A stretch of 63,343 nucleotides of DNA, the filler included, from Stramenopiles sp. TOSAG23-6 (Eukaryota): assembly GCA_900128565.1 (NCBI GenBank). It is 8 parts of 8 records of this genome, joined end to end, with 100 filler letters (N's around TTAATTAATTAA, not from the genome) between each part and the next. Parts side by side here need not be neighbours in the genome. Positions count along the whole stretch, not along the records: positions 1 to 10,025 come from LT636336.1; positions 10,126 to 20,145 come from LT636337.1; positions 20,246 to 30,244 come from LT636338.1; positions 30,345 to 40,309 come from LT636340.1; positions 40,410 to 50,371 come from LT636341.1; positions 50,472 to 60,403 come from LT636342.1; positions 60,504 to 61,873 come from LT639156.1; positions 61,974 to 63,343 come from LT639157.1. The stretch is one strand, 5' to 3'. Of the stretch, positions 1,461 through 62,497 are shown piece by piece. How positions within the stretch are numbered: position 1 is the first letter of the stretch; the number at the start of each line of letters is the position of its first letter. The notes under the pieces are model-generated. The model had not been told where the DNA came from. It did no database searches and saw only the letters and a program-made list of their open reading frames with translations. Both the position numbers and the translations under genes were made by a program.

Positions 1461-3933
1461 ATGGGAGAACCATCTATGTCAACGAAAGATTTACTGAATT
1501 GCATTGAAGTTGCACGCAAAACGGGAAATTTTACTGACGAGTCGAGTTTTAGTTTGTCATGCAAAAATAGGTTAGCTCTTGTTTACAGCGTTTTATCTCT
1601 ACCTGATATCCCTGGAATTGATATTTCTTCAAATAAAAATACGAATCCTAATTCGTGGGATAATGAGATAACTAATAATCCTGAGCAGGCGTTGGAAAAT
1701 GTTGCTATATTGTTAGTTTCGCTAGAAAAGTTGATTGCTGACAACACATCCATACTTGATGAATTTGCGTTAGATGTTTTGCAATATGTGTTTCAGTATA
1801 TGACTGATGATGATAAAGTATTTGGCCATTTTTCTACACAGCTAAATAAATCTGTACAACAAGCCGCTTCCAATTTTATAGAGACTGTGTGTAGAACGCG
1901 AAATCCTCGCGAAGTTTGGATGCCTATAAAAGTGATTGCAACTTCAAGAATGGTGAACCTTGGTCGTGATTTTCAGCTACTCCGTTCTATCCCTATACTT
2001 TTAGATAGAATTGTTTCAGAACGAAAGGGAAGATCACGTCGTCTACTGTTCTCAGACATTACCAATATATCATGTAAAATAGTAGAAAAGATGATGTTAT
2101 CTCATAGAGACGACTTTCTAATTCATGAGAGTTTACTTACAAAGCATTTTTTGAATGAGGTTGTTGGTAAGCTTCCTCTTGCAAAGTATCTTAAGAGTGG
2201 AGAGCATCATCAGAGTGGAGATCATTATCACACTATTTTCGAATTATGTATTCGTGGAATGTCAACAATTATCGAACCATTTACAGCATATTTATATCGT
2301 ACGAGAATTGCACTTCAATGCGTAGGTGTTTACCGAAAAGACACAACTATAGAAAAAGAATATGAGTTTGCATTAGATTGTTCAGCTCATCGTCTTTTTA
2401 TATTACGTCATGTGAATTCGATAGCAGTTTTGTCCAAGGAAAAGAGTTCACCTGATCTTCCAATACAAAATTTTGTACAACAACTACTACGAGTAGATGG
2501 TTCAGCACTTTATATTTTAGAGTTTATTAGAAAACAGAATATGTGTAATACTACAGTATCTAGTGAAGTATGTTTTTATCATTTATGTTTTTTTCAAATG
2601 TTCAATTTTGATTTTTTTTTTTCTTTGAAAATTCTGTACTTAACGATTTTCAATTTTGACATATTTTAAATAGTACTGGCCTTAAATGGCGCAGCTCTAT
2701 TATCTTGGTGGTTATTAGGACGAAATCCTAGAATTCTTAATCAAAATCAATCATTACTATCATATATACCATCAGTATTATCGCCAAGTATGTACGTTTT
2801 CATCATTCATTTTATTTTTTTTTTGGTACGAAATTTTGTACCTAACAAAAAACTATCAATTTTTTTTTAATATTTTCCGAAAATATATGTTTGTCCGTAT
2901 TGGCATTGAGAATTGTTCACGATTATTAGATACTAGTCAAAGTAAAGTTAACATTGAAAGAGGCCTGGAATTAATGTCAAGGATATTTGAAGCATATTTA
3001 CCACCTCCGATATATATAAAATGTAAACAGGAAAGCTCTCATAATAATGATAATATCGTTTGTGACGCTTATCAACTTTTAATATGTACATTTTCAATTT
3101 CAAAATTTTAATTTTTTTTTCCAACGAAATTTTGTACCTAACGTTTTTTATGTACCAAAAAAAAAATATTTTTTCACAATATATATACCTGTTTCAAAAT
3201 GTTATTAAATATTAGTACAATGAACGAAAAGGAGAAAAATCGTGAAAAATCTTTACATTTAATTCCTTTATTATTATCTATTTTACCACCGTGTTTACGA
3301 TTTAATACTATATTTAGATTGCTAAAGGGAAATTATGCTGCTTTTGATAATTATTCATTTGGTAGAAAACTTGGTACAAAACAAAAAGATTCAGATAATT
3401 ATTGTCTTTCATCAGCAAATACTGCGATAGTTTTCGATATAATTCGTGCACAGGTTGTTGAATCTATTTCTTATATACGAAAATCTGTACCAAAACCAAA
3501 GCAAAATGAAGTATACAACAATTTCTATACTTCTCCTTTTGTAACAGGTAAAGTCTTTTGTTTTGTGAAATGGTTGTTAGAAAAGTTATCTCAGAGAGAA
3601 CTTGTAGAATGGTCTATGGCTTATGCAAGCTGTTTGAATTTACTACGTTTTCTAATTCTTGTAGTTCCAGATGCTCTGAAAAAAATAAATAGTAAGCCTA
3701 ATCGTATGGCGTCTCATAATAATATCGATGATAGTCCAAAGAATAATGTGGTAAATATTTGTGATTTAATTAATCTTATGAGTAATGCTGTTGATGATAA
3801 GACAAATGAACTTTGTAAATTAAGTAATAATATTGATTCTACAGAATATGCGACAACAAGATTGAAAGAATCAAAAAGTCGTATTTTTATTGTGCAGGAA
3901 GTGTTGAGTAGAGTTAGAGAACTTTTAGTATAA
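1461..3933 (+). CDS. Multi-exon helical protein, possibly glomulin/ALF4-like; introns ~2568-2672 (boundary ambiguous), 2792-2888, 3086-3184
   Basis: Four exons join in frame after intron removal; C-terminal AYASCLNLLRFLIL resembles the glomulin/ALF4 C-terminal motif. Confidence 0.55.
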
Positions 3934-4076
3934 AATAATATATTTTTTAAGAATTTTCCAATTTGGATTTGTTTTTCGTACAAAATTTTGTACTAACAAA
4001 AAAGAAAAAAAACAAATTTTGATAGTATAAAATAAGAAATATATACATTTATTCATATTTACATGATTTTAGAAAT

Positions 4077-6628
4077 CTAGGGCAAAGTCTCGATAAAAAG
4101 TTTCATCGTTTCACTTTTCAATATTTCAAGTATTGATAATGGGGAATACATAGTAAAAATATTTCGGAGAACATTACCTGAATTTTCTACACCTCCGCGT
4201 CTCAAAGCTTTTATGAAAGACATTTTCCGCCGGAAACGCATTTTTTTCAATTCATGTATTGTGAAAAGATATTTGTTTTACGAAAAAAAACAAATTAGGT
4301 ACAAAATTTTCTATGAAAAAAAAAATGAAATTCATGATGAAGACTTACATTCACAAAATTATCAACACTTTCTTCTGGTATTGAATCAATCATAGTGAAT
4401 TCTGAAGCTTCTTTATTATTGGACATGGCGACTAAAGCAACAACTTTATCATTGCGTAAATCTTCTGATGCGTATTTAAGAGTCATTCCATTTATATATA
4501 CTGCCTGTAAGAAAAAATCACGATTCTTTTTTAATTGTTCCGAAATGTTCTCAAATAATCCATACCCGAATAATTCATTTCCTAGAGATGGTGGTTTATT
4601 TAATGAGAGTGCATAAATTGTGAAAAAATACTTTTTTTGTTAAAATAAAATTCGTTAGGTATGGAATTGGGTACAAAAAATAAATAAATTTAAAATTCAA
4701 GAATTCAAGAAAACAAAACGCACATCAAGTAAAAATTGACCGTTTGACTTTAAATTCACTGGAATATTTTCGACAATATATTGTTCTTCACCCCACGCAT
4801 TGTTTAAAGCACAAAGTGTTATTTCACTCTGTTCTCTCAATGATTTCGAAGCGTCATTGTATATTGTGTTGTCAGGATGATATAACGCTGCCAAAAATAA
4901 ATCTCTCTCACCCTGTAATCTCTTTGAAGCTACTTTGAAGAATAGATCACCATCATCACCTTGAATCCTAGCCATCATTATATGGTAGTCATCTACATAT
5001 GGCAGACGTTTTACTGTATCCATGCAAAAAGAATCTGGATTCTCTTCCCAAAATTCGATTTCGAAATTTCCAAGTATGGCAGCATCAAAAACAAAACCAT
5101 AATTTTGTTTTAAAGAATCTGAAGCAAAAGCAATATTAAGAGCATTTACTTGTACAGCTAACAAAACAATCTCGGGATCATTAATAAACTTTGGTTCGTC
5201 GAAAAACATAATATCTCCATTTTGAATAGCCACTAAGTAATCATCTCGCATATTTTGCATTTCACTTGAGTACCTTATTTTCGGAAATTGAGGATAGTCA
5301 TTCACCCAATGTTGTTTTCTCTTTGCTACAATATCATTAGCAATTGCCCTGGATTTAATTTTTGCAATATCAACTTTATCAACTCCAGAAATGACACGAG
5401 GAATATCAAGAAGCCTTGGTGATGCCCATTCTAAAGCAGCGATATTTCCCCTTTTAGCAGCCATAACAATATTGAATGTATTTCGTAACCTTAGTGAAGC
5501 ATATTGAAGTGCATTACCATTACTTTTATCAACCGCAGTCATAACAATAAAAGATGTATCTCGTAAATTCACTGAAGCATATTCGAGTGCATTACCATTA
5601 CTTTCCACCGCAGCCTTAACAATATCATTGCTATCTTGTAAACCAAATGAAGCATATTCGAGTGCAACACCCACACTTTTCACCGCAGCCATAACAATAT
5701 CGTCATTATTTTTCAATAAATCTGAAGCATATTGGAGTACAAAGCCATACTTTTGTACAATATTTAATACAAAATTGTAGTTTCCAAAGTTTGTTACTGA
5801 GGTGTGTTGTAGAATGTCCACCAAAGTTTGTCTTTTATTGCTGCCGTCTACAGCTAACTGTGTAACCCAGAGCTCATGTCGAAGCCTTGATGATAAGAAT
5901 TGAAAAGATGCTGGATTCAATAACACAGCTGTAACAGCTATAATTTCATTATCACGCTCTTCTACTGATAAATTTTGAAAATATTCTTTCAAACAGAGAT
6001 AGGATTGCTCAGACACCATTAGAGGAGTTTGTACAGAGAGTAAGGTAGTTATGTGATGATATATTGTATCAATCAACTCAAAATCATAAGTATATTCGGG
6101 TATTATTTCTCCTGAAATTGTATGCCATTCATTTCTTAACTGTTGTATAACAGGATTAAATATATTTGAAGTTTTTAAAATCTCATGCAATTTAAGTTGA
6201 AAAATTCTTTGAGCAAATGAATGAATGAAAGGGATTTGGCGAAGTCTCTCCGAAACGTGCTGTATCATCATCGGGTTTTTATGAAGTACTCTTATTGCAA
6301 CTGCCATGTCGTCTTGAAAGAACGGTGATACTGTAGCGAATTTACTCGGGGTTTCCATGATTACACGTACCACTTTATCCCGGGAGACCAACACATTAGA
6401 GATGTCTGTGCTGGGAGCGGCGGTGGCTGCTACTCCAGCAACGGACGCATTTATCGGACTTGCATGCGCCACCGAGGACTGTAGAGTTGTTGTTGCGTCG
6501 TTTTGCGAGGCGTTGTCTGTTCTTTGTCTTTTTGAGTCGCGCATAACGTCGTCGGACCCCCGTCGTTCCATTCCACTTGCAATGGTTAAAAGAAACGTAA
6601 TGTATAGAAACAATGTATAATATTTCAT
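4077..6628 (-). CDS. Secreted DUF4116-repeat protein; introns 4613-4723 and 4254-4348
   Basis: Signal peptide from MKYYTL; many 'AV..NG.ALEYAS..L' repeats; the repeat pattern continues across the first GT-AT intron and the frame stays open across the second to TAG at 4077. Confidence 0.8.
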
Positions 6629-6879
6629 GCTGTACCTGCTTTTGATGATTCCTTTCAGCTGAAGTGGTGTGGCTGGGGTAGAAGTATCTGTACAACAATT
6701 ATTTCCGAATTTCCTTAGTAAGTATGCGTATGTACGTCGGTAGTATGCGCCAGTTAGCAATAGAGCCAGCGCGCAAAACCGGTAACGATCCCCGATCGAA
6801 ATCTTGACAGAAGTGGCCACATCAAGTTTCAGTGCGCATCTAAAGACTTTCGTATAATTCAGTAACTCAATCAAGTACT

Positions 6880-9323: not shown

Positions 9324-9958
9324 TCATGCTTGTTGACTAAAATAAGAATCTTTAGATTTCCCAGACCTACCTCCTGAAGTTTTTGAACTTGTTTTGTTTG
9401 ATGTATCACTTTGTCCAACTTCTTGCGCATCAGACTTATTTGCATGTTTCTTTTTCCCGTGTTTGTTCTCAGTTTTTTCATTTTTTTTCGTATTTTTTTC
9501 TTCTCCATTTGACAAATTTAAATTATTGATTCCATTGGGCATACACCAACCAAGCATAGCAATGGTATGTAATAATATATGAAGCGCTGTAATAGTAGCA
9601 CCCCAAATAAGAACACTTGCTGCAGTATACTTTTCTTTCTGAGAATCTACACTTTGTCCATTATCTGATTCTATGATCCAAGTACCTATATTGTGAAAAA
9701 ATATTTTTTCATTTTTTTGTTAGGTACAAAATTTCGTACGAAAAATAAATTTGAAATTGAAAAAAAGTTGAACATTAACATACCAAATTCTCTGCTGGAT
9801 AAAGCAAAAGCACAATATATACTGTAACCAAAAAAGAAAAAATCTACAAAAAAAAGAAGGATCCATGTTGTACGATTTGCAAATTTTTCTGGATGATAGA
9901 AATGCAAATAAGTAAAAAATATTAAGTAGACTTGTACAAGAACTGAACAAATCAGTGT
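9324..9958 (-). CDS. 3' part of a multi-pass membrane protein; GT-AG intron 9686-9783
   Basis: Two exons join in frame (REF-G-TWII); hydrophobic segments; 5' end lost at contig edge. Confidence 0.6.
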
Positions 9959-21032: not shown

Positions 21033-22594
21033 TTAAATATCTGGCCTTTGGCGATTACAAGCAGCACAGCATAAGAATCTGCCTTTATTTACAAGAGTGC
21101 ATAATGAGCAGACATTGTGAAAAAATATGTCAAATTTTAAATCCGTTAACTACGAAACCTTTACATTAAGTACAAAATTTTCTAGTAAAAAAAATGAAAT
21201 TCATAATGAAAACAAACATGTCCACTCTCCCTCTTTACACGAATCATTTGAGTTATCCAATTCATATTTACTTTGATTATGTTGATTNNNNNNNNNNNNN
21301 NNNNNNNNNNNNNNNNNNNNNNNNNNNNNNNNNTTGATTATTTTTTTCATCACAATTTTTTATTTCTGTATTTTCTACAACTTTTGAATTATTGTCCACT
21401 GGAAAATTATTACAACTGTCTTCGGATATGTCAATCAAAATGTTTTTGTTTGATGTATTATCATTGAAAGGCTCGCATGGATTTTCTATTTCATCAGTTG
21501 AAATATGCATTTTGGAAAAATATTTCAATAAAAAAACACGTTAGGTACAAAATTTCGTACGAAAAAAAAACAAATTGAAAAAAAATAAAACATACATCAA
21601 TCACAGACCTAGCAATCTTTTTAGGTCGCGGATTTCTAGGACAAACTTTTGGAAAATCAGTAAAAAAATGAGAAATTTTACGTTTCCTAGAAACTTTAGA
21701 TTTTTTAGAGATATTATTGTAATAGTTTTTACTACATTGAGGATGTTCTCCGTTCAAAACTTTATGCAATTTTACTGCTTCTGCTTCATCATCATTACTT
21801 GCTGAGATACTCGAAGCTTTACTTCCCTGGGATAATTCAAATGGGCATTTATTTTTATTGATTAGGGAGTTTTCAATGCGAATGAGCATAGAAGAATTAC
21901 TTGAATTTAGCATAGAAGAATTACTTGAATTTAGATTCAATATGCTTGAATTATTTGTTTGGATTATTCTATTGGAATTTTGGACCTCAAACGAAGCATT
22001 CAAATCCATTGCAAATTTTTTATCTCTCTTTTCTTGCTCTCTATTTCTTTCTACATCTTTCGATTGTAACTTTGCAGCAAAATCAGCGTCTTCTTTTTCT
22101 CGAAGTACTTTTTGTATAAATAACTGGGCTTCTTCATCCTGTTCTATCAGTGCCTTGGATTTTTCTTCTTCTCTGAGTCGATCTTCATCGTGTAACTTTT
22201 GCATAGAAGACAAACCTGATAGTAATTCACCATTTGTGTTACTAGATACTGGAACTTTGACAGATTCCTCACCAAAAATAATTAAATCTGAATCAAACTC
22301 ATACTCTTCATCTGTTGGATCAATGATATGCGTTTCAAAAAATTTAGTCATTTCGACTTTTTGTCTTTCGTTAATGAAAGTTCCATTATTTTTGGCCCTA
22401 CGAATCCAACGCATTGTTTTACGACATAGTGGACATACTACCTTTTGACCCTCAGTTTTTTCATAAGTGTTATAACATCCTTCGCACATAGAAACAGAAA
22501 TGGCTCTACAACATTGAAGATTTATCGGTGGATATGCCCACTCAAAACAAGTTTGACACTTCCAACTCTTGGGTAGATTTTTCATAGGGTCCAT
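21033..22594 (-). CDS. RING-finger protein with C-terminal RanBP2-type zinc finger; introns 21505-21595, 21110-21217
   Basis: N-terminal CQTC...CEGC...CPLCR; the spliced C-terminus gives WTCSLCTLVNKGRFLCCAAC. Confidence 0.8.
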
Positions 22595-30038: not shown

Positions 30039-30397
30039 TCCCAAAGGGTAGGGTTTAAATTTCTGATATTTCTTATTTTTCGGGCATTTTTATTGCGTAG
30101 GGTAAATAATCAATTGAAGAGTTGAAGTGGGAGAATTTTTTATTGTGTATAGAGTAAACAATTTTTTTTGTACGAAATTTTGTACCTAACAAATTTTAAA
30201 AAAAATAATTCTAGAGTGTAAGTGGGAAAAATATATGAGAGATTNNNNNNNNNNNNNNNNNNNNNNNNNNNNNNNNNNNNNNNNNNNNTTAATTAATTAA
30301 NNNNNNNNNNNNNNNNNNNNNNNNNNNNNNNNNNNNNNNNNNNNGTACAAAATTTCGTACGAAAAAAAAATCAAATTTGAAAAAAAATAAAACATAC

Positions 30398-43900: not shown

Positions 43901-46223
43901 AAAAGTAAACAGGCTAATTTATCATGTCACTGTTAATGGTTATCATAACCAAATAAAAGAACGAGAAACAAAAAATGATGACATGTTGAAAAAGTATGGT
44001 GACTCTGAAGAACGTAGAAAACGTGCAACAAGTTATATTGAAAAAATTAAAGAAAAATTGGAACAATTTATTCGACAATTCCACAAGGATTATCCAAATC
44101 AAGTGCCAAAATATTCAAAAGCAAAAAGGAAGCGTTTGCAGCGCGAATATAGAGAATATATATCTGGTGTCATGTCTCAACTTGAAAAGAAAAAGCAGCA
44201 AGTATTATCTCCTGACCATGACTTTGAGAGCTTACGAAGTCATGCAGTCAATACCAAAATTGCCCAATATAAAGAAGAATTTCATGAGAGGTATGTATGT
44301 TTTATTTGTTTTCAAATTCGAATTTGTTTTCGTACGAAATTTTGTACCTAACGAGTTTTTGTTTTGAAATATTTTTCCAAAATACATCCTGGTGTTATTG
44401 TAGATGATTTATTTTCTGAAGTTACGTTGGTATTTGCATATACAAATATTATGAAGAATTTAGATAATCAAGCACAAGCAGTTATGTCGGGATATCAGAA
44501 AGAATTTCGCGCTTCAGCTAATCCGGCGAATGTTCAGTACGAATACTCATTGAAACTTCAAGAAGTCGGTGAACTGCGAAAGAAGAAAGAGAAAGAATTT
44601 CTTAAATTATTTCCACAACTCAGAGACAAGATTCAATTCCAACAACAACAAGGTCCCGTTACTTATGAACCGTTGCCTCTACAAGTGAATACAAGGCTGA
44701 CAAGCAATGGGAAAAAGAATGAAACACTTGATACAAATAGAAATGAATCACTTGCTAAAAATGGTGAAAGTATTCCTGAGCAAATAACAAGTGTAATAAA
44801 TCCCCAGGATGATGCTATTATTGAGACACAAGAGCCTGTACCAATAAGATTATCAATGGATTTTATATCGGAACAAACGGCGCGATCTCCTGTGATAGAA
44901 TCTAATTCAAGTCAAGCAGATAAATCTCCTGTGATAGAATCTAATTCAAGTGAAGCAGATAAATCTCCTGTGATAGAATCTAATTCAAGTGAAGCAGATA
45001 AATCAATAGCTTTCTTTCAACTTGACCTGATGGGAGATCAGTTACTACAGTATGATGATTTATCTGATGAAGACAAATCCGAAAGATACAAGGTATATTA
45101 TTTTAGACAGACGCGCATATTACAGGAAATAGAAATGGAGTTTGCAAAGATTCCATCACACTACAGAGGTTATGAAAAATGTGATTATGTCCGTCCATTA
45201 TATCGTACTGAAAACGAAGCAAGAGAGAAGCTATTCGATTATCATAAACGATTTGTGAAGAAATATTCTGGTTTGAGCGATTACTATCTTGAACAGCATG
45301 TAATGAATGGATATGAAATAAAACGATTGAAATTTTATACTAGTATGTGTGACTTAGGTAGACCAATGGGCGTAGAACAATTAGAATCAAAGGAAAAGAT
45401 AAAAAGGAGATGGAAAAAGATGGAAGAGGATTTGGATAAAAAACATCCTGGAATTATTGATAGATACAACAAAGCATTTCGAAAGAAGAACAATATACTT
45501 GTCTATCACATTAAAATCCATGGTTATCATAATAAGATGAAGGAACGTGATGTCAAGTATAAAAGAAGAGTCAAATTATTTGGTGATTCTGAAAGTCGAA
45601 GAGGACGTGTGAGAGATTTTAAAATAGGAGTACGAAAAAAGTTGAAAAACTTTATTAAAAAGTTCCATGAAAGTTNTCCNGGCGCGGTACCAAAATATTC
45701 AGAAATGGAAACAAAAACTTTACAGAGACAATATAGAGAACATATATCTAATATTATGTCTGAAGTAGAACGATATAAACATCTGGTTTCATCAGAAGTT
45801 GAATTTGAGAAATTTAAAGAATATACAATGAATATAAGACTAGCAAAATACAAACAAAGTTTTCACCAGGAATATCCTGGTATTATCGTCGATGAACCAT
45901 TTACTGATGCTACATTGTTTCACATATACACGCAAATGATGAAGTCTTTGGATGCCCAAGCACAAGAAGNAGTGTTGAAATTCCGCAAAGATTNTCANAC
46001 TACNGANGATCCAGAGAAACTGCAGCAAGAGTACNATTCAAAACTTGAGTTGGTTAGTAAAAGGCGAATTGTANTAGAGTTTGATTTCCTTGATTTCTTT
46101 CCGCAAATGGAAGGCAAACTTCCTATACAAGGACCAAAACCTTGGGAATTTGGAAATCATGTGCGAATGCAAATATATATGGATGGTGTTGAGGTTCAAG
46201 TAGACCCTACTAACCCTCAATAG
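40985..46223 (+). CDS. Large protein with three internal ~260-aa helical repeats; introns 42126-42219, 42486-42586, 42763-42859, 43580-43733, 44295-44387; 5' region disrupted
   Basis: Recurring LVYHVxIHGY, VPKY, FHxEYPG, FPQL motifs; frameshift ~41178 and in-frame TAG 41491-41493. Confidence 0.7.
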
Positions 46224-46348
46224 ATACTACATTGTATAAACGATAAAGGCAATAGATAGTTGTCATGAATATTATTTATTGTTTCGTTTTTTTTATTGAA
46301 TAAAAATGATATTTAGTGTTTGTTCTATTTTTTGTTGTACACTTTTCA

Positions 46349-47488
46349 TTATTCACGCTTTCTAATCTGCATTTTGACACCACCAGCACCAAGACCACTT
46401 AAACCCATCATCGCACGAAAATTTGACATTGTCTTGGCTTCTTTTTCTTGAGCAGCCCTTGCTCGTTTCAATTTACTTTTATTTTGATTCTCTTTTTTTC
46501 TATCAATTCTTTTCTTCATCCTTTGAAATTGAGATCCTTCATTTGTGCCACCACCACCCATCGATACATTTTCAGATACAGACATTCCATCACGAAGAAA
46601 TTCTTTTTCTCTAGCACTACCATGTATTGTAAAAAAATATTTTTTTTTGTAAAATTTGTTAGGTACGAAATTTCGTACGAAAAAAAAATCGAAATTGAAA
46701 AAAAATTGAAAAAAAAAACATACATGAATTCTGTTTCCTTGTGATTGACGTTTTGCCATTTTCGAAGCATGACTTCCAGGGTCTGCTCTCGCGTTGTGAA
46801 TAATTTCCGATCGATGTCTTTTCTTTTTATCCTTTATATTTTTTCGGTTTTCTTGTTTTTCTTTATAGGAGATATTTTTACGCTGTGTAATATTTAAAGT
46901 ACCTGAATTTCTTCCCTCATTATTCGTGAATGTGTCGACCGCATCTTTTGTAGACTGAAGTTGAGCTCGATCTTTATCACCTAAAGTTTTGACAAAATTC
47001 CATTTATGTTTTGTTCTTTTAGTTGTTTCGAGGATTGCTTGGGAGATACCATCATAATACATAGTATCTAAGTCATCAGAATTCCATTTTGAACAAAATT
47101 TGGAGAATAAATGACGCGCATCATCAGTTAAAAGATCATCGAGATATTTCCTTTTCTCAAGATGCAACCACACGCGAAACTCTTTTGCATGTGTAAAGTA
47201 GTCTTCTCCACTTAAAACCCTTCGGCCACCGACGTCAATTCCGCGAGCTTGTAACAAAAGTTTGGCTTTCTTCAATTTACTATCGTGACTACTGCTAGAA
47301 CGGTGCTTCTTTGCTTTTTTGATGCGTTTTTTCTCTCTACGTTCAGTACTATCAGATTGGCTACTATTGTCATCAGTATCACTACGTTTGCTTTTGCGAT
47401 GTCGCTTTTTACTCTTTTTATGAGACTTCTTTTCCTTACTACTCTTTTTTTCCTTTTTTGCTTTTTTCTCTTTCTTGTTACGACTCAT
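46349..47488 (-). CDS. SCI1 (style cell-cycle inhibitor 1)-like nuclear protein; intron 46622-46723
   Basis: EDYF...EFRVWL.LEK..Y...L...AR.LFSKF..KWN...YY.GI motif; K-rich N-terminus. Confidence 0.7.
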   Translation of the reverse strand: MSRNKKEKKAKKEKKSSKEKKSHKKSKKRHRKSKRSDTDDNSSQSDSTERREKKRIKKAKKHRSSSSHDSKLKKAKLLLQARGIDVGGRRVLSGEDYFTHAKEFRVWLHLEKRKYLDDLLTDDARHLFSKFCSKWNSDDLDTMYYDGISQAILETTKRTKHKWNFVKTLGDKDRAQLQSTKDAVDTFTNNEGRNSGTLNITQRKNISYKEKQENRKNIKDKKKRHRSEIIHNARADPGSHASKMAKRQSQGNRIHVCFFFQFFFNFDFFFVRNFVPNKFYKKKYFFTIHGSAREKEFLRDGMSVSENVSMGGGGTNEGSQFQRMKKRIDRKKENQNKSKLKRARAAQEKEAKTMSNFRAMMGLSGLGAGGVKMQIRKRE

Positions 47489-48639: not shown

Positions 48640-49554
48640 CTAAGGAAATTTCGAATGTACATCCAAACGTTGAATATCGTTTTCTCTGGCTTGAAGGATA
48701 TTTTGTCGAGTCTTCATTCCTGATTGTGTCAGTGTAATGAGATGTAATAATCCAGGTATTTTGTCTTGTTTTGCCTGACATTCTTTCGTCTTTAGGGTTA
48801 GGGTGTTGAATTTTTTCATTCTGTTTTTTGTTTTTTTCCAAAGATCATTTGCCGTCTGTATNGTTTCCTGTTTAGCTGCTTGTATTATCTTTTTTTTCTC
48901 TTTATGATGAATAAAAAGTCCATTATTAGATTTCTTCTTTGCTAAGTCTGACAATTCTGCTGCTTTCTTTTCTTCTATAACTGATTGACGGAACTCATAT
49001 ATTGTGAAAAAAAAAAGTTTGGTTAAAAAAAATCGTTAGGTACAAAATTACGTAGAAAAAGAAAAACATTCATGATGAAGACATACGTCTTGAATAAACT
49101 GAAGTTGTTGTTTGCAAGATTTTATAGCCATTTTTGTCATTTGTAGTTTTTTTCTATGCGACAAAAGCTCTTTGTTGTATTGTTTGTAAACAAACTGAGC
49201 ATTATTAAAATCTTCTTGATAATGATTTCGTCGTACTATAAATTTTGAAGCTTCTCCTTTACCGTGAACACTTTCCTCCTCCTCCTTATCTTTGCAATTA
49301 CTGTTATCATCACACTTTCTATAATTCCAGCATTTGCAGTCCATTTCATTCAAAGGACCAATATCCCCTCCATATACACATTGAGAATTTTTCCCTGGAG
49401 AAGAACACCAACCACAAAATTCTGTACTTGTACACTTTGAACAATTATCGGTCTGTGGACAGAGAGAATTTGATCTCAAGAATACCTTTTCAGATTTCTG
49501 AAGGCTTATTTGAATAACTGTAATAATAATTAAAAAATATACTCTAGAGCTCAT
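48640..49554 (-). CDS. Secreted PSI-domain plus coiled-coil protein; intron 48997-49086
   Basis: Signal peptide; CSKC...CGWC PSI motif; in-frame join to ORF 48640-48954. Confidence 0.7.
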
Positions 49555-50605: not shown

Positions 50606-51851
50606 ATGATTTCCTTTACACGCCGTTAAATACATTGGTAAACTATTTCTACACTGAAGTTTTTCAGAGGATTGAACATTTGCATTAGGGTTAGGGTTAT
50701 TATGTTCAGATTCAGATAAAGTTTTGTCTAATTTTGTTGCGTTTTCATTTTCAACTTGGACAGTACTAGGGTTGGGGTTAACCGCTTGGTTCCATAGTGC
50801 AATTCTATGTCGTTTTTGTTCCAATTCTTTTTTTTTTTTTTTTTCTTCTTCATTTTTTATTAAATTTAGACGTTTTTTTGCATCTTCTTCCGCTTTTTTT
50901 TTTTCTTTTCGTGTCATTGGACGACCAGACCCTAACCCTAGGTTCGTTGAATGCTTTTTTTTGTTATTATTTGTTCTATGTTTCAGTTGTTGTTGTTGTT
51001 GATTCTGTCCAAATTGACTTAATTCATGTATTTTGGAAAAATATTTCAAAAAAATCTTAAAAAAATTTGTTAGGTACGAAATTTCGTACGAAAAAAAAAT
51101 TTTGTAAAAAAAAATAAAACATACATTATCACTCAATTGAAATAATGACTGTTTAAATGTAGTATCATTTTCAATACAATGTTGGATTTTTTGCATTTGC
51201 TGTATAAGATGTTTGACAACTTTTCGAGTCGCAATTTTTGACAATGATGATTCAAAATTCTTTTTTCCCTTGGAATATTCAATATGAATTTTGGAAAAAT
51301 ATTTCAAAAAAAAAATCTAAAAAAATATGTTAGGTACAAAATTTCGTACGAAAACCNAAAAAAAAAAANCGATTTTTTTNTAAAAAAAAAAATATTTCAA
51401 AAAAAAAATCTAAAAAAATATCTTATGTACAAGTTTTCGTATGAAAACCAAAAAAAAAAATAAAACATACATAAATATCTTGAAGAGTTTCGACGTCTAC
51501 ACATTTACAAATAATTTGCATTTGATATATATCAATTGTAAGAAGCTCACGAGAATTCTTCGGTATACAATTTTGTAACCCTGCAATTTCAGCAGGAGTT
51601 GCTTTTGTATTTAGTGCTTTTTCCCAAAAACGTTCAACATAGACTTTAAACAGTGACATTCGTCTTTTTTTTTGTTCCATTAATTTTTGCTTTTCAGATC
51701 TTTGAGTTGTTGTAGACTTTTTTGAGTGTTTTGAGTGTTTCGAATGTTTCGAATGTTTAGACTGTTTCGATTTTTTAGTTGTCGTTGGCTCTTGTGAATG
51801 ATCTTTGCTCGCTTTCTTATCAAATTTATCGTTTCTTTGCATAAAAGACAT
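50606..51851 (-). CDS. Hypothetical protein, 5' part; introns 51284-51470, 51026-51124, next intron from 50605
   Basis: Exons join in frame at phase-0 GT-AT introns. Confidence 0.6.
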
Positions 51852-52412: not shown

Positions 52413-54332
52413 ATGAAGCACTTATTTACAGGAGTATTCTTTTATTCAAGTATACTGTTTACTTTGAGTACTGTGTATGCAGTTGATAAACAGCAGATTA
52501 CTTGTAGCGCAACTCAACCATGCCCCGAACATCAACGTTGCTACCGTCCAGGATCGACTCAGTCGCTTTGTATTGAAAACAATATGCTAGGTGCATCTGC
52601 TCCACCCACTCTTGGTGCTTCAGTACAGGATGAAACAGTTAAGAAAATATTATCATCCATTTTAGGTGATTTTTTTGATGGTTCAAAGGGTCTGTCTGCA
52701 GAGCAAAAGGAATTACTCTTTTCACAATTTGAAAAGTTGTCAACAAAACAAAGAGAGCAATTCGCCTCTTTTGCTGAAAAATTAGGCGAAGGAAGTGGTA
52801 ATAGGAACCCAGGTGATCCTGTCACATCTGAAGAAAAAGAGAAGTTCACTAAAGCTGGATTTATTGCGCTACAAAATGCATGTATGTTTTCATCTCAATG
52901 TTTTGTCTACATTTTTTTATTTTTTTTGGTTTTTTGGTTTTCATACGAAATTTTGTACCTAACAATTTTTTTTTTTTTTTTTTTTTTTAAAATTTTTTTC
53001 AAAATGTTTTTATACTCCATTCATGAACCATCTTGGACTATCGGAAAAAGATAAAGAGAAACTTTCTTTCATCAATTCTGATCAAATGTCTGCAATTTTA
53101 AACAATCTTCGAGATGCTTTGAACAATGATGGTCAACAATTCGATCCCAAAGATTTGCACGACAAAACGAAACTTACTGCAAAACAACTCAACGGCCTTG
53201 TCAATGTTTTTGGATCATTGAGGGCTGATTGTTCATCTAACGAAGCAAAACAATGCCAAGACGAATTTATGTATTTTTTTTTTTTTTTTTGAATTTATTT
53301 TTTCGTACGAAATTTTGTACCTAACAATTTTTTTTTTTTTTTTTAAAATTATTTTTCCAAAAAACATGAATGGAAAGACTCAGTGTATTTGGACAAAATT
53401 TCAAAAACGAATGAAAAAATGCGTCAAATATGGGAAATGTATCTTTGAAGAATGTCAAAATATCACACAATGTGACTCACCTGATGCTCTGGAGTGTACG
53501 AAAAAATTCGAAAACGAATCTTGTCCAATTTCAAATGTAGTTTTTTTTTTTAATTTTTTTTTTTAAATTTTTTTTCATAGGAAATTTTGTACCTAACAAA
53601 AAAAATTAAAAATTTTTTTTTTGAAATATTTTTCCAAAATATATTTTGATTCTTTTCTTCATCATAATAAGAAATGTATTGTGTATGGCTCATGTCTATT
53701 CGCACGTTGTATCGATATTTCAAGCATTGGTGATGATGATGATACAAAAAGTGATAATAAAAGTTATTGGGAAAAAGAAGAACAACAATCAAATGGGAAA
53801 TCTTTGGGTGTGTTTTCAACAATTCTTGTGGTGATTTCTGTACTGTTTGTGATGGGTATGTTTTACGTTTTTTAAAAAAAAAATTTTTAATTTTTTTTAC
53901 ATTTTTTTTTACATTTTTTTAAAATTTTTTTTTAAAATTTTTTTTTGAATTTTTAAAAAAATTGTAAATATTTTTCAATGATTCCAATGATTTCAATCAT
54001 TGGTGTACCAGATCCAAAGATAAAACTAATACTCTATAGTATATACACATACTACATTCACTCTGTTACTTTTGTATTGAAATTTCGTACCTAACAAAAA
54101 CATCAGTTTACTTTTGTATTGAAATTTCGTACCTAACAAAAACATCAGTTTAAAAATAAAAATAAAAATATTCTTATACAAGAACAGGTGTAATTGGATA
54201 TTTAGGATTTCGTGTTTGTGTGAAGAAAAATAATGTTTCAAATGACAACTCTGTAATGTCAAATGGATCGAGATCGGACAATCGACGAACGTTTCGTACT
54301 TTTTTCTTAATGAATTTTTCACTTTTTTTTTC

Positions 54333-54384
<52 letters not shown>

Positions 54385-54503
54385 CATAGGAAATTTCATA
54401 CCTAACAAAAAAAAATGAAATATTTTTTCTCAATATAGACACAGGACCAGGAGATTATATGCCACCTACGAATCAAAATGAAGGAACATATACGGAACTA
54501 TGA
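52413..54503 (+). CDS. Cys-rich type I membrane protein; introns 52882-53020, 53271-53367, 53537-53644 (GT-AT), 53856-54187, 54296-54438 (GT-AG)
   Basis: Signal peptide; six exons join in frame; repeated KKC..YG.C.F..C unit; TM helix; C-terminal YTEL. Confidence 0.75.
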
Positions 54504-57841: not shown

Positions 57842-60381
57842 CTACAATTTTTCTAGCAAATTACAATGTTTCAACTTCGAAGCTAAAAAGGAAGCAGTAA
57901 CACCGTTATTATTCTTAATATTTGATTCAGCGCCAGCTTCAAGTAATAAATGAATTGTTTCTATTCCTTCCTTATAATTACTTTTATACCATTTTTCTTT
58001 ACCTAAAGCCAAATGATTACTTTTATACCATTTTTCTGTACCTAAAGCCAAATGTAGCGCAGAATTACCTGCAGAATCTGTTGCATCAATCAAATCTCGG
58101 GATTTCATGTTTTGTGAAAAGGTTTTTTTTTTTTCAATTTAAANNNNNNNNNNNNNNNNNNNNNNNNNNNNNNNNNNNNNNNNNNNNNNNNNNNNNNNNN
58201 NNNNNNAAAAAAAGAAATACAAATCTAAAATACAAAATTTCATACAAAATTTCATAGTTAAGAACAAAAAAATATAATACTGGAGACGTACTTGTCCTTT
58301 AGAATGACTTTCAAAGCATCGGTATGATGCAACGATGCAGAAATCATCATTGGGGACCTTTTTTTATTATTACCAATTGTAAGATCTGCACCTGCAAGGG
58401 TAGGAAAATATTTCAAAAAATGTTTTTTTTTTATATTAGGTACAAAATTTACTATAAAAAAAAACATAAAGACACAAATGATGAAAACGTACCTGCATCA
58501 AGTAGTAATTTGATGATCANNNNNNNNNNNNNNNNNNNNNNNNNNNNNNNNNNNNNNNNNNNNNNNNNNNNNNNNNNNNNNNNNNNNNNNNNNNNTGGTT
58601 TGAGTTTTTTTTATGTCAAATTGTTTTTTTTTTCATAGTACATTTTGTACCTAATATGAAAAAAACAAGAAAAACAAGAAAATTAAAACAATATAAATAT
58701 GTACACAAAACGTTTTACAACGTAAAAATTAAATGATGAAAAATATATAATAAAATGAATGATGAAACTAACCTGTTTGTCTCTTGAATTGAGATGTATT
58801 CCATGACGTATGAGTATGTTTAAACATTTTGTACGGTTTAGTTGAGCAGCAATCATAGCTGCGGAAGTTGCTGTCCAATTTATATGGTTNNNNNNNNNNN
58901 NNNNNNNNNNNNNNNNNNNNNNNNNNNNNNNNNNNNNNNNNNNNNNNNNNNNNNNNNNNNNNNNNNNNNNNNNNNNNNNTTCATTTTGATGGTCATTTTG
59001 ATGTTCATTTCCCATTTCTATTTTGTTTTTGATATTTTTAGAGGTATCTGTTGCTAACGTTTTGTTCAAAAATCGTTTGCACAACATTTGAGTAATTCTA
59101 GGGAAATTATTTTGTACTGATATATATAATGGGGAACAACCGTGTATTTTTTCACTCGCGATATCTATGGATGCGCCTCTAGATAAAAGCAATTGGACGC
59201 ATTGCTCATGTCCATTTGTGCACGCTTTATACAGTGGCGTTTCATTGAACTTATCACAAATATCAATATTTATATTTGGTTCTGGTATGAAATTTTGTAT
59301 GAAAAAAAAAAAAAAAGTTGAAATGAAAAATGATACCTTACGGCATTATCGTACTCGCTCCTTTAGCGGCAAGAACATGAAGTGATGTCATTTGTGTAGA
59401 ATCTTCTCTTGCATTCACATCGACTTTATAATTAAGTAAAAGCTGAACGACACGATAATAATCTGGTTTTGTATTTGTTGTAGATTTTGATGTTTTCATA
59501 GAGAGAGCTGTTGTTGAAGTAATGGCGATTGGATTTATGTTTTTTTCAATTTGACTTTGATCACTCAAGTGATAATTATTCTTTGAATCATTGTGTATAG
59601 AGTCGACTAATGTATCGCTGCAGTATCCTTCACATGCGGCATATAGTGGAGTTTGACCATTGTATGACGTTATATCTGCCTTGGCGCGTGTCTTTAACAT
59701 TCGTGTAACGTGTAACAGGCGTTGAATTTCAGGATTAGCTTGTAGTTCATATTTTGGGTGTTTCAAACACCAGCCATTTTCAAATAAATCTCTCTCAACG
59801 TCATTCTTCACAGTTTTAGCTTCCTGATCCGTCAGTTGCGCCAGTGAACTATTCAAATTTTTCAAAATCAATTCAACACCGATATAACACCCGGAAGCTG
59901 AAGCTAGCCACAGTGGTGTTTGACCACTTGCATTTCTACTCTCTACATTGACGTATACTCCTAACAAAGAGCGAATAATATGTGCATTTCCTTTATATGC
60001 AGCAGCATGCAAACAAGACCAACCCACATTATTCAATCTATGTGGATCAGCACCTTCTCCAATGAGAAACTGTACAGCTTCGTCAGCATTATTACGACAA
60101 GCAATATATAAAGCTGTGCTACCATCTTTTGGTCTATAATCATCTATATCTACGTTTCTGTACAGTAACTCCTGAAGTATATCAACACAATTCGCACCCG
60201 CTGCATCCATCAATGGTGTATTCCCCAACTTATCACATACTTGATATGAAGCACCAGCATTTAATAAAAGACAGAAAGCGGTATAATTAGCTGTAGAGCA
60301 TGAGTCCAATAAAGCACTCCGGAAAAATGATGGTTCGGTATAATTGATAAAATGTCTTTTCATTTCTTCTCTACGACTCAT
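57842..60381 (-). CDS. Multi-exon ankyrin-repeat protein (gapped); introns include 58392-58492 (GT-AG) and 58107-58291 (GT-AT, spans a gap)
   Basis: Many GxTPL/ALH ankyrin motifs over several ORFs; junction near 59270-59340 unresolved. Confidence 0.8.
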
Positions 60382-61873: not shown

Positions 61874-61973
61874 NNNNNNNNNNNNNNNNNNNNNNNNNNN
61901 NNNNNNNNNNNNNNNNNTTAATTAATTAANNNNNNNNNNNNNNNNNNNNNNNNNNNNNNNNNNNNNNNNNNNN

Positions 61974-62000
61974 AAAAAAAAATAGGAAAAACCAATTGTG

Positions 62001-62033
<33 letters not shown>

Positions 62034-62497
62034 CAATTTCGATTTCGATTTTTTTTTTTATAAAAATGTTATACCTAACGAAAAACAACTTGAAATATTT
62101 TTCCAAATGCATGATGACATCGTTGATGATTTTGATACGAAAACGGCTAATACTATTAAGTCTATCTATCATCAAAAGAAACATATTCTTGCACAATCTG
62201 AAATTTTTCTTTCACCGGAGGATAGAAATTTTATTCCTTTTAGTTCAATGATTGGACATTTTGAAAAAAATTTTGAAAAAAAAATTGAAAAAAATATTGA
62301 AAAAAATTTTGAAAAAAAATTTCAATTGGATGATTTGACAAATGCACAAGATATATCAAATACATGCAAACGTTTACATATACCTCCACCAACCTCTCCT
62401 ACCTCTGAAGCTCGACAATTGTCAGTTTGTTTAAATAATTCTTCCCATCAGAATGTATGTTTTTCATACCCTAACACTCAATAACCTTAATTATTTC

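What the first reader, a model, noticed from the sequence alone, without database searches (positions are those of the whole stretch)
2792..62112. Dominant class of non-canonical GT-AT (GU-AU) introns
Seen: 17 complete intervening sequences read AT|GT...YAT|: 2792-2888, 3086-3184, 4254-4348(-), 4613-4723(-), 21505-21595(-), 27052-27202(-), 27307-27464(-), 42486-42586, 42763-42859, 43580-43733, 44295-44387, 46622-46723(-), 51026-51124(-), 51284-51470(-), 52882-53020, 53271-53367, 53537-53644. Further AT ends occur at 9959(-), 10175, 20294, 48997(-), 58107(-) and 62112. Donors are ordinary U1-type (GTATGT, GTACGT, GTAAGT), with a CTAAC branch site and T tract, but the 3' consensus is TTTTC(C/A)(A/C)AATA(C/T)AT. 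Removal at AT restores known motifs (acyltransferase-3 DICMGWVWYL, DUF4116 repeats) and gap-free alignment of internal repeats (VPRYTKRKRMRLKREY vs VPKYSKAKRKRLQREY). Where I checked nearby AGs they gave frameshifts or were absent (exception 48997). Established: major-spliceosome introns almost always end in AG, and U12 AT-AC introns need an ATATCC donor, which is absent here. Inference: this lineage's spliceosome routinely accepts AU as the acceptor, across several independent contigs.
Basis: partly seen in the sequence, partly recalled or inferred. Interest (0 to 1): 0.95.

Follow-up and report, generated by a model that had tools for sequence, protein, structure and literature searches.

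The report
Mobile introns ending in AT
An uncultured marine protist carries many copies of one small mobile element inside its genes that looks like a normal intron but ends in AT instead of the near-universal AG, apparently because the two bases duplicated at insertion serve as the intron's end.

Summary
All 17 segments sit at the stated coordinates, read AT|GT...AT|, and rejoin the flanking reading frames when removed (17 of 17). The precise joint is confirmed without gaps by intron-free paralogous repeats or homologues at 7 of the 17.

It has a yeast-like donor, a CCTAAC-type branch motif, a T tract and a conserved 3' block. It is flanked by a 2-nt direct repeat: the exon ends in AT and the intron ends in AT. 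Intron-free paralogous sites carry a single AT. One further copy has GT/GT instead of AT/AT.

This looks like an introner, a transposon-derived intron whose 3' terminal dinucleotide is the target-site duplication. All 17 copies lie in the sense orientation of the gene they interrupt, which argues for removal from RNA rather than DNA.

No transcript evidence was obtained, because the RNA runs barely cover these exons. Which spliceosome acts is inferred, and GT-AT is also a known rare U12-type pair. Five of the 17 have in-frame AG alternatives.

It is a new variant of a known kind, as in Fritillaria, Amoebophrya and Micromonas introners.

The parts
2792..2888 (+). AT|GT...AT| element intron, 97 nt, phase 2
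   Evidence: frames join. No homologue check.
3086..3184 (+). AT|GT...AT| element intron, 99 nt, phase 1
4254..4348 (-). AT|GT...AT| element intron in the DUF4116 gene, 95 nt, phase 0
   Evidence: The antisense frame is almost as open (57 against 58 codons), so strand is assigned from gene context.
4613..4723 (-). AT|GT...AT| element intron in the DUF4116 gene, 111 nt, phase 0
   Evidence: The junction window aligns without gaps to two other repeats of the same protein. The in-frame AG at -18 would insert 6 residues.
21505..21595 (-). AT|GT...AT| element intron, 91 nt, phase 0
27052..27202 (-). AT|GT...AT| intron in the acyltransferase-3 gene, 151 nt, phase 2
   Evidence: Gap-free against 12 homologues. 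The conserved Met codon is formed from exon AT plus the next exon's G.
27307..27464 (-). AT|GT...AT| intron in the acyltransferase-3 gene, 158 nt, phase 0
   Evidence: Gap-free against 12 homologues.
27850..27948 (-). Same element in the acyltransferase gene, flanked by a GT/GT direct repeat. Needs 99 nt removed: GT...GT, or AT...AG if slid 2 nt.
   Evidence: Five close homologues (P0004, P0008, P0013, P0036, P0052) of the 12 aligned fix the spacing. The canonical donor with the adjacent TAG (101 nt) breaks the frame.
42126..42219 (+). Element copy whose donor reads AT instead of GT. Needs 94 nt removed: AT...AT here, or AT...AG at 42128-42221.
   Evidence: Paralogue spacing. The exact register is not resolved.
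42486..42586 (+). AT|GT...AT| intron, 101 nt, phase 1
   Evidence: Intron-free repeats 2 and 3 of the same protein align without gaps. Empty sites carry one AT.
42763..42859 (+). AT|GT...AT| intron, 97 nt, phase 0
   Evidence: Intron-free repeat 3 aligns without gaps. An AG at -29 is skipped, as it is out of frame.
43580..43733 (+). AT|GT...AT| intron, 154 nt, with the element core duplicated in tandem
   Evidence: Intron-free paralogous sites align without gaps. Two cores are present.
44295..44387 (+). AT|GT...AT| intron, 93 nt, at the site homologous to 42763
   Evidence: (family D8)
46622..46723 (-). AT|GT...AT| intron, 102 nt. It is open in frame, so retention would add 34 residues.
51026..51124 (-). 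AT|GT...AT| intron, 99 nt. An in-frame AG alternative lies at -30.
51284..51470 (-). AT|GT...AT| intron, 187 nt, element partly duplicated. An in-frame AG alternative lies at -33.
52882..53020 (+). AT|GT...AT| intron, 139 nt. An in-frame AG alternative lies at +30.
53271..53367 (+). AT|GT...AT| intron, 97 nt
53537..53644 (+). AT|GT...AT| intron, 108 nt. An in-frame AG alternative lies at +27.
9686..9783 (-). Canonical GT...AG intron of the same family, in the same gene as the AT end at 9959. Its 3' block differs from AT-type copies only in the last base.
   Evidence: Frames join with a split Gly codon. I derived the donor coordinate by counting from a neighbouring site.
58392..58492 (-). Canonical GT...AG intron with the same branch motif, in an ankyrin-repeat gene
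   Evidence: The junction rebuilds an ankyrin-repeat-like sequence. The ankyrin consensus it is compared with is recalled. Coordinates were counted.
54296..54438 (+). Probable GT...AG intron of the family, containing a T run of about 50
   Evidence: Frames join, but the downstream frame is only about 21 codons.
48994..49086 (-). Element copy without an upstream AT. Both GT...AT (to 48997, 90 nt) and GT...AG (to 48994, 93 nt) keep the frame.
30345..30397 (-). 5' half of an element after exon ...AT in the Ndc80 gene, cut by the contig end. It is mirrored at 40257-40309.
21114..21217 (-). Possible further AT|GT...AT| copy. The downstream frame is only 9 codons.
   Evidence: Not verifiable.

Best explanation
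The segments are copies of one small non-autonomous mobile element, an introner, that has inserted in the sense orientation into protein-coding exons of an uncultured marine eukaryote.

What the element carries:
- a strong 5' splice site (GTAYGT) at its very first base;
- a branch-site motif (CCTAAC) about 34-58 nt from its end;
- a T tract and a conserved 3' block.

Insertion duplicates a 2-nt target, nearly always AT. One copy stays as the end of the upstream exon and the other becomes the last two bases of the intron. Splicing removes the element plus one copy of the duplication and so restores the original coding sequence exactly. The intron therefore reads GT...AT.

Shown:
- the repeat family;
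- the AT/AT direct repeat and single-AT empty sites;
- the exact joint at 7 junctions;
- the sense-strand bias;
- coexistence with GT-AG introns that carry the same donor and branch motifs.

Inferred:
- that removal happens on RNA;
- that the major (U2-type) spliceosome performs it, accepting U in place of G at the last position, with A at -2 and a pyrimidine at -3 kept;
- that the repeat is a true target-site duplication.
For: (1) Family. The core occurs 31 times against 0.39 expected. nhmmer gives 45 hits, and the alignment shows conserved central and 3' blocks.

(2) Direct repeat. Exon -2/-1 is AT and intron -2/-1 is AT in 17 of 17. Intron-free paralogous sites in the same gene have a single AT exactly at the insertion point in 4 of 5 sites read; the fifth reads AAC.

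(3) Exact joint. Four junctions are confirmed by intron-free internal repeats, two by 12 acyltransferase homologues, where a Met codon is rebuilt across the joint, and one by DUF4116 repeats.

(4) A further copy with a GT/GT repeat needs exactly 'element plus one repeat copy' (99 nt) removed to keep homologue spacing, although a TAG lies 2 nt further on.

(5) Spliceosomal signals. GT is present in 17 of 17, +5 G in 14 of 17, a CCTAA[CT] or CTTAAT motif 34-58 nt upstream in 17 of 17, and -3 is a pyrimidine in 17 of 17.

(6) Orientation. The sense-strand frame join is longer than the antisense join in 17 of 17, though only 58 against 57 codons at 4254. Under orientation-neutral removal this would be about 2^-17.

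(7) GT-AG introns with the same architecture occur in the same genes. One 3' block differs from AT-type copies only by G for T at the last base.

(8) An independent DNA run and three RNA runs list no alternative letter at or above the listing threshold of 10 reads in 100 at terminal T positions 42586, 42859 and 44387, where depth is hundreds to thousands. That depth pools many paralogous copies.

(9) Precedent. In Fritillaria borealis a TAC target duplication forms the 3' AC of MITE-derived introns, and 3' AT ends occur there too. In Micromonas the 3' AG is co-opted from the duplication (passages of PMC11282704; PMC13326754).
Against: - No spliced transcript was seen. In the three RNA runs laid, the exons of 40410-45675 have depth 0 to about 5, while the element itself is thousands deep in RNA and DNA alike. 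That is compatible with DNA carry-over, unspliced RNA or excised introns.
- No near-identical transcript-derived protein was found.
- Ten of the 17 junctions rest on reading frame alone. Five of the 17 have an in-frame first AG, 4 of which are among those 10; the fifth (4613) is disfavoured by repeat alignment.
- The AG-type copies at 9686-9783 and 54296-54438 do not show a 2-nt repeat (exon TG and TC against intron AG), so not every family member fits a simple duplication model.
- The copy at 42126-42219 fits neither GT...AT nor the repeat rule.
- The inverted termini are only about 4-6 nt, and RNAalifold finds no conserved pairing.
- No transposase and no snRNA lie in the window.
- The GT/GT copy would require the spliceosome to prefer GU over an AG 2 nt downstream, which is hard to reconcile with ordinary 3' site choice.
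Confidence: 0.6

Rival explanations
1. The introns are removed by a transformed minor (U12-type) spliceosome, which is intrinsically tolerant at the 3' terminal dinucleotide. This would parallel the transposon-driven U12-type expansion in Physarum.
For: - GT-AT, AT-AG and AT-AT are the commonest non-canonical U12-type pairs in Physarum. A transposon origin with a 2-nt TA insertion site was proposed there (passages).
- Here the donor is conserved out to +9 (T at +6 to +9 in 16-17 of 17), longer than usual for U2-type.
- One copy has an A at +1.
- A at -9 is invariant (17 of 17), so a branch point close to the 3' end is conceivable.
Against: - The defining U12 donor bases are absent. There is no C at +5 or +6 in any of the 17, +5 is G in 14 of 17, and +4 varies. 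That is the yeast-like U2-type pattern.
- The only strong branch motif lies 34-58 nt upstream and is followed by a T tract.
- A canonical-looking intron with a pyrimidine tract and CAG uses the same branch motif.
- No U11, U12, U4atac or U6atac match was found, but the window is only 63 kb.
Confidence: 0.15
2. Removal occurs at RNA level but is not set by terminal dinucleotides. The 3' cut is position-defined, 2 nt past the element's end, either by a dedicated factor or by pairing of the element's ends. This would resemble Euglena nonconventional introns or Amoebophrya introners.
For: - The GT/GT copy is cut (by inference) 2 nt before an available AG.
- The first intron base can pair with -3 (G with C or U) in 17 of 17, and the termini GTAT / ATAC are inverted repeats in 6 of 17 (counted by eye).
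- Euglena uses a paired motif plus fixed spacers. Short direct repeats make 84% of its introns 'slidable' (passages of PMC12501133).
- Amoebophrya non-canonical introns have 3-5 nt direct repeats and 8-20 nt inverted repeats (passages of PMC7789003).
Against: - RNAalifold on 14 copies predicts 0 conserved pairs, and the possible terminal helix is only 3-4 bp.
- Unlike the Euglena, Amoebophrya and hemistasiid cases, these introns keep a textbook donor, branch motif and T tract (section 5 of PMC12621601).
- Only one non-AT repeat case supports position-definition, and it has an alternative AT...AG register.
Confidence: 0.1
3. Many of the 17 are really GT-AG introns, or the segments are not removed at all. 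That would mean boundaries mis-set by the reader, use of nearby in-frame AGs, pseudogenes, or insertions tolerated as read-through.
For: - Five of 17 have an in-frame first AG.
- Frame-preserving GT/GC...AG pairs exist for all 17 if extra codons are dropped or added.
- At least one intron (46622-46723) is a multiple of 3 and open in the reading frame.
- Ten junctions lack homologue support.
Against: - At all 7 junctions with homologue or paralogue evidence, the AT end is required without gaps and the AG alternatives add or delete residues.
- The first AG is out of frame in 12 of 17, close to the one-third in-frame rate expected by chance.
- 11 of 17 lengths would shift the frame if retained.
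- AT/AT at 17 of 17 is unexplained by this reading.
Confidence: 0.08
4. The segments are excised from DNA, like ciliate internal eliminated sequences bounded by a short repeat, and the assembly derives from unrearranged DNA.
For: - Precise loss of 'element plus one copy of a 2-nt repeat' is what transposase-derived excision does (recalled knowledge of ciliate IES biology).
- No RNA evidence contradicts it.
Against: - All 17 copies are in the sense orientation.
- Spliceosomal signals are conserved.
- Long frames are open under the standard code.
- Ribosomal protein eS17 scores higher against several other ribosome entries than against entry 4bts. I recall the former as plant and apicomplexan ribosomes and 4bts as the ciliate one; no call gave the organisms.
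- The repeat is AT rather than the TA recalled for Paramecium.
- An independent seawater DNA run holds the element at high depth.
Confidence: 0.03

Closest known systems
MITE-derived non-canonical introns of the tunicate Fritillaria borealis (AG-AC, AG-AT)
   Same: - Transposon-derived introns with short inverted termini.
- The target-site duplication (exonic TAC there) forms the 3' splice site.
- 3' AC and 3' AT ends are processed by the major spliceosome.
- Canonical introns coexist.
(Passages of PMC11282704; PMC13326754.)
   Different: - The 5' end there is also non-canonical (AG), and many introns have purine-rich 3' regions.
- Here the donor, branch motif and T tract are textbook and only the last base deviates.
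- The host is a protist, not an animal.
- The U2AF duplication reported there could not be examined here.
Introner elements of Micromonas pusilla and Aureococcus anophagefferens
   Same: - Thousands of similar short elements that make introns.
- Inverted termini plus a target duplication.
- One splice site is carried by the element and the other is co-opted from the duplication.
(Passages of PMC11282704.)
   Different: - Those yield canonical GT/GC-AG introns.
- Here the duplicated dinucleotide is AT, so the intron ends in AT.
- Large introner surveys accept only AG or AC at the 3' end (passage of PMC12130899), so a family like this would be filtered out.
Non-canonical introner elements of Amoebophrya (Syndiniales)
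   Same: - A marine protist with repeated introns.
- Direct repeats overlap the exon-intron boundaries.
- Inverted repeats are present.
(Passages of PMC7789003.)
   Different: - There is no consistent terminal dinucleotide there, repeats are 3-5 nt and 8-20 nt, and U1 was reported missing.
- Here there is a single dominant GT...AT class with strong U1-type donors.
Expanded U12-type introns of Physarum polycephalum
   Same: - GT-AT, AT-AG and AT-AT boundary pairs occur.
- A transposon origin with a 2-nt target was proposed.
(Passages of bioRxiv 10.1101/2020.10.12.336362.)
   Different: - The donor there is [AG]TATC[CT]TT and the branch motif lies 10-12 nt from the 3' end.
- GT-AT is a small minority there.
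- Here +5/+6 are GT and the branch motif is 34-58 nt away.
Nonconventional introns of Euglena and hemistasiid diplonemids
   Same: - Slidable boundaries caused by short direct repeats.
- A suspected MITE origin.
(Passages of PMC12501133; abstract and section 5 of PMC12621601.)
   Different: - Those lack GT, a branch motif and a pyrimidine tract, and depend on end pairing.
- None of that applies here.

Membership tests
U2-type (major) spliceosomal intron | 5' GT with a U1/U6-type donor (GTRAGT or GTAYGT) | tested here: met
   GT 17/17, A at +3 16/17, G at +5 14/17, T at +6 17/17.
U2-type (major) spliceosomal intron | Branch motif (YTRAY / TACTAAC-like) upstream of a pyrimidine tract | tested here: met
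   A CCTAA[CT] or CTTAAT motif lies 34-58 nt from the end in 17/17, and a T tract runs from -16 to -12.
U2-type (major) spliceosomal intron | 3' terminal AG | tested here: not met
   AT in 17/17. At the 7 homologue-checked junctions no AG reading fits.
U2-type (major) spliceosomal intron | Removed from RNA as a lariat | tested here: inconclusive
   The RNA runs laid hardly cover the exons. Sense orientation in 17/17 is indirect support.
Introner / MITE-like transposon-derived intron | Many similar copies at unrelated gene positions | tested here: met
   31 core matches against 0.39 expected, 45 nhmmer hits, copies in at least 8 genes.
Introner / MITE-like transposon-derived intron | Target-site duplication, with empty sites holding one copy | tested here: met
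   AT/AT in 17/17 and one GT/GT copy. Of 5 intron-free paralogous sites read, 4 have a single AT at the site. True insertion polymorphism between individuals was not tested.
Introner / MITE-like transposon-derived intron | Terminal inverted repeats | tested here: inconclusive
   Only GTAT...ATAC (4 nt, or 6 with the AT), fully present in 6/17 (counted). There is no consensus pairing.
Introner / MITE-like transposon-derived intron | Related autonomous element or transposase | not testable with these tools
   No whole genome is held. No transposase domain was found among the 40 frames scanned.
U12-type (minor) intron | Donor [AG]TATCCTT | tested here: not met
   C at +5 in 0/17 and at +6 in 0/17; +4 is variable.
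U12-type (minor) intron | Branch motif TTCCTTRAC close to the 3' end (about 10-15 nt) | tested here: not met
   The nearest CTAAC-type motif is 34-58 nt away. The 3' block matches the consensus only in part, by eye.
U12-type (minor) intron | Minor snRNAs present in the genome | not testable with these tools
   There are no Rfam matches in the window, and no genome is held.
Euglena-type nonconventional intron | No GT-AG and no pyrimidine tract; ends paired by an internal motif with fixed spacers | tested here: not met
   The donor, branch motif and T tract are present, and there are 0 conserved pairs.
Ciliate-type internal eliminated sequence | DNA-level excision, independent of orientation | tested here: not met
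   17/17 are in the sense orientation, and the element is held in an independent DNA run. DNA lacking the element was neither sought nor seen.

The most novel reading that the evidence does not exclude
In this lineage the second step of splicing is no longer tied to AG. The 3' splice site is read as 'two bases past the element's conserved 3' block', whatever those bases are: AT usually, GT once, AG sometimes. Any insertion of the element into a coding exon is then harmless, and a single transposon family could seed tens of thousands of introns. That would be an AG-independent rule for 3' site choice in an otherwise yeast-like spliceosome, or a dedicated excision machinery that rides on spliceosomal signals.
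Probability: 0.2. Interest if true: 0.9.

Novelty: new variant of a known kind. Interest (0 to 1): 0.72.

Why it matters
Almost all spliceosomal introns end in AG. The few lineages that break the rule at scale (Fritillaria, Amoebophrya, euglenids, hemistasiids) also break it at the 5' end or lose other signals.

Here a single base is changed, G to T at the last intron position, in an otherwise textbook intron. The change is tied to a 2-nt target duplication of a mobile element. That gives a clean natural experiment in two respects:
- how a transposon can become an intron without carrying both splice sites;
- how much the last nucleotide matters for exon ligation.

There are practical consequences too:
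- Gene finders and introner surveys that allow only AG or AC acceptors would mis-annotate most genes of this organism. In this window roughly three quarters of recognisable introns are of the AT type.
- They would also miss the family entirely.
- The element is extremely abundant in seawater DNA and RNA runs, so it may be a widespread feature of an ecologically common, uncultured protist.

Tried and rejected
- **Whole genome.** None is held.
- **Rfam.** No RNA family reaches its gathering score in the window, so no snRNA is available to inspect.
- **Read laying.**
  - The accepted request, 40410-45675 with three RNA runs and one DNA run, gave almost no exon cover in RNA and none in the DNA run over 42874-44281.
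  - It therefore shows neither exon-exon joints nor intron-less DNA. The listed joints are repeat-to-repeat artefacts.
  - 'No spliced reads seen' is not evidence of anything.
- **Near-identical transcript-derived proteins.**
  - Exon 42860-43579 had no hit at all among proteins of 132-420 aa.
  - Kinase exon 20295-20486 against longer proteins gave a best hit of 65% identity. That only shows the 3' boundary must lie between -35 and about +4.
- **Collection scans for the element core.**
  - Viral contigs gave 0 matches.
  - Prokaryote genome contigs gave 4 single matches, not inspected further.
  - Metagenome contigs gave 77 loci. The 13 read had no element context, and the rest showed a single core match each.
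  - The organism is therefore not in those collections.
- **Conserved RNA structure.** RNAalifold on 14 copies gave 0 pairs, so I dropped end pairing as the main mechanism.
- **Broad enumeration of donor and acceptor pairs**. It was too permissive to be informative by itself and was used only for single cases.
- **Literature.**
  - Searches for GT-AT / GU-AU intron classes found no paper describing a lineage with dominant GT-AT introns.
  - Searches on single-cell genomes of marine flagellates did not identify the organism.
  - Supplementary tables of the papers were not opened. Those of the Amoebophrya, Physarum and introner-survey papers may list GT-AT frequencies that bear on novelty.
- **Taxon.** Only weak hints were obtained. 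The nearest GDI cluster is commonest in diatoms. eS17 scores highest against ribosome entries I recall as plant and apicomplexan. I name no organism.

Full report
**What the window is**

It consists of eight contigs joined by N spacers that carry a stop-codon linker.
- Several contigs end inside the repeat described below.
- It is nuclear DNA of an AT-rich eukaryote. Genes found include Rab GDI, FKBP, a SET-domain protein, Ndc80, ribosomal protein eS17, ankyrin and Sel1 repeat proteins, an acyltransferase-3 protein and a DUF4116 protein.
- Long frames are open under the standard code.
- Public runs that hold the 40410-50371 contig are small DNA runs of one coded organism plus seawater metagenomes and metatranscriptomes.
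- Two contigs are largely their own reverse complement, as in amplified single-cell DNA. That reading is my inference.

**Checking the observation**

- Deleting each one joins the longest flanking open frames on the sense strand in 17 of 17.
- Shifting the 3' end by 1 or 2 nt shortens the open span in all 17.
- 11 of 17 lengths are not multiples of three.
- The donor profile is GTA(Y)GT, with G at +5 in 14 of 17.
- All 17 have a CCTAA[CT] or CTTAAT motif 34-58 nt from the end, then a T tract and a conserved 3' block. In that block -9 is A, -3 is a pyrimidine, -2 is A and -1 is T in 17 of 17.
- The six additional AT ends at contig edges are as described.

- The 12-nt core around the branch motif occurs 31 times at up to 1 mismatch, against 0.39 expected.
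- A profile built from 12 copies finds 45 hits.
- The alignment shows conserved central and 3' blocks.
- In public runs the element is thousands deep, in DNA and RNA libraries alike, while neighbouring exons are at depth 0-8. It is therefore highly multi-copy in this organism or its relatives.

**Is the joint really at AT?**

Frame alone fixes only length modulo 3, and frame-preserving GT/GC...AG pairs can be found for all 17 if codons are dropped or added. I therefore looked for alignments that fix the exact joint.

1. *The gene at 41494-46223.* It has three internal repeats.
   - The third repeat has no introns at the sites of introns 42486, 42763/44295 and 43580.
   - With GT...AT removed, all four junctions align to the intron-free repeats without gaps.
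2. *The acyltransferase gene.* Its exons, joined at the AT ends, align without gaps to 12 homologues across both junctions.
   - At 27052-27202 the family's conserved Met codon is rebuilt from the exon's AT plus the next exon's G.
3. *The DUF4116 protein.* The 4613-4723 junction window aligns without gaps to two other repeats of that protein. The in-frame AG at -18 would insert six residues.

So 7 of 17 junctions are fixed by homology, and all seven require the AT end. The first AG at least 10 nt after the branch motif is out of frame in 12 of 17 and in frame in 5 of 17, about the chance rate. The ten junctions without homologue support, four of which have such an in-frame AG, remain inferences.

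**The direct repeat**

- The exon ends in AT and the intron ends in AT in 17 of 17.
- Of the five intron-free paralogous sites read, four have one AT exactly at the insertion point. That is the signature of a 2-nt target-site duplication.
- Because of the repeat, the joint can be slid by up to 2 nt without changing the mRNA. In the slid registers the ends are heterogeneous (read): AT...AC in 8, and AT, TT, GC, CC or TC in the rest. Only the GT...AT register is uniform and puts the donor consensus at +1.
- A third element in the acyltransferase gene (27850-27948) is flanked by GT/GT instead.
  - Five close homologues (P0004, P0008, P0013, P0036, P0052) of the 12 aligned require removal of exactly 99 nt, meaning the element plus one repeat copy.
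  - The canonical donor with the TAG that lies 2 nt further on (101 nt) breaks the frame.
  - The same length slid by 2 nt would read AT...AG, and the two registers cannot be told apart.
- The copy at 42126-42219 has AT in place of the donor GT and needs 94 nt removed, as AT...AT or AT...AG.

**Canonical introns coexist**

- 9686-9783 lies in the same gene as the AT end at 9959. 58392-58492 lies in an ankyrin gene. 54296-54438 is probable. All are GT...AG with the same donor and branch motifs.
- The 3' block of 9686-9783 differs from AT-type copies only by G for T at the last base.
- The copy at 48994-49086 has no upstream AT and can be read as GT...AT or, 3 nt further, GT...AG.
- By my count the window holds 17 complete AT-type introns, about six AT ends or AT|GT starts cut by contig ends, one possible further copy, three GT-AG introns and four ambiguous ones. 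'Dominant class' is fair for this window.

**RNA or DNA?**

I could not get transcripts.
- Protein searches found no near-identical transcript products.

Indirect evidence favours RNA.
- Every one of the 17 copies is in the sense orientation of the gene it interrupts. Orientation-blind DNA excision does not predict that.
- The conserved positions are exactly the spliceosomal ones.
- The independent DNA run and the RNA runs list no alternative letter, at the listing threshold of 10 reads in 100, at the terminal T of 42586, 42859 and 44387. This pools paralogous copies.

**Which machinery?**

- The donor (G at +5, T at +6, variable +4), the distant CCTAAC motif and the T tract are U2-type. A canonical-looking intron uses the same branch motif.
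- The U12 donor CC is absent in 17 of 17.
- Still, GT-AT, AT-AG and AT-AT are the characteristic non-canonical U12-type pairs in Physarum, where a transposon with a 2-nt target was proposed. I keep that as the main rival.
- A structure-guided mechanism like Euglena's is not supported, since no conserved pairs were found.
- From recalled structural work on yeast spliceosomes, the last G contacts the first G of the intron and the A at -2 contacts the branch adenosine. Keeping A at -2 and replacing G by U, another keto base, is the mildest conceivable change. This is inference, not tested here.

**Comparison and novelty**

- Transposon-derived introns whose duplication supplies a splice site are known. 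In Micromonas the result is a canonical AG. In Fritillaria a TAC duplication gives 3' AC, and 3' AT also occurs.
- Amoebophrya, Euglena and hemistasiid diplonemids have repeat-flanked non-canonical introns without canonical signals.
- I found no paper describing a lineage with a dominant GT...AT class.
- Introner surveys accept only AG or AC acceptors.
- I therefore rate this a new variant of a known kind, in a new host, with the smallest possible departure from the canonical intron.

Noticed in passing
window 30345-40309 and 61974-63343: Contig 30345-40309 is 95.7% identical to its own reverse complement, with all 403 mismatches in the centre (34844-35810). Contig 61974-63343 is 83% self-inverted. 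These look like inverted chimeras of amplified single-cell DNA. Features in them, such as the Ndc80 gene and the 62112/63238 intron end, are counted twice if this is not noticed.
   Followed up: partly
window 42130-42220, 42500-42590, 42760-42860, 44295-44390: The element is covered thousands-fold in a seawater DNA run and in poly(A) and other metatranscriptome runs, while flanking exons are at depth 0-8. The family is therefore extremely abundant in the sea. It is unclear whether the RNA signal is unspliced RNA, excised introns or DNA carry-over.
   Followed up: partly
window 15105, 16410, 16428, 24795, 48792, 50685: Short interstitial telomere-like dimers (TTAGGG twice, either strand) occur at six places. 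One lies downstream of the eS17 gene and one beside an isolated element core at 15302-15335. They may be a promoter or other regulatory motif.
   Followed up: no
window 15302-15335, 30162-30197, 48615-48651, 54070-54140: Isolated fragments of the element's central core occur without its ends, one of them as a tandem pair. They seem to lie outside the long open frames, though I did not check this. The core itself is a near-palindrome built around GTAC.
   Followed up: no
window 43580-43733 and 51284-51470: Two introns contain an internal tandem duplication of the element's core and 3' half. Two branch motifs are visible in 43580-43733; in 51284-51470 one of the two is degenerate. The frame still requires the outermost ends.
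   Followed up: partly
window 2568-2673: An intron of a related subfamily is ambiguous. The strong donor at 2568 is in frame only with an end at 2669, where exon and intron both end in AA. The nearby AG at 2673 is in frame only with a weak donor 4 nt further in. It may be a further non-AT repeat case.
   Followed up: partly
window 54330-54385: A run of about 50 T sits inside the probable intron 54296-54438. Its length may be unreliable in amplified, short-read data.
   Followed up: no
window 42724-42798 vs 44256-44330: Introns 42763 and 44295 sit at homologous sites of two internal repeats, with 77% identity across an exon-intron stretch of 75 nt. By eye the proteins of the two repeats look far more diverged. 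The cause could be constraint on intron sequence, gene conversion, or independent insertion at the same AT.
   Followed up: no
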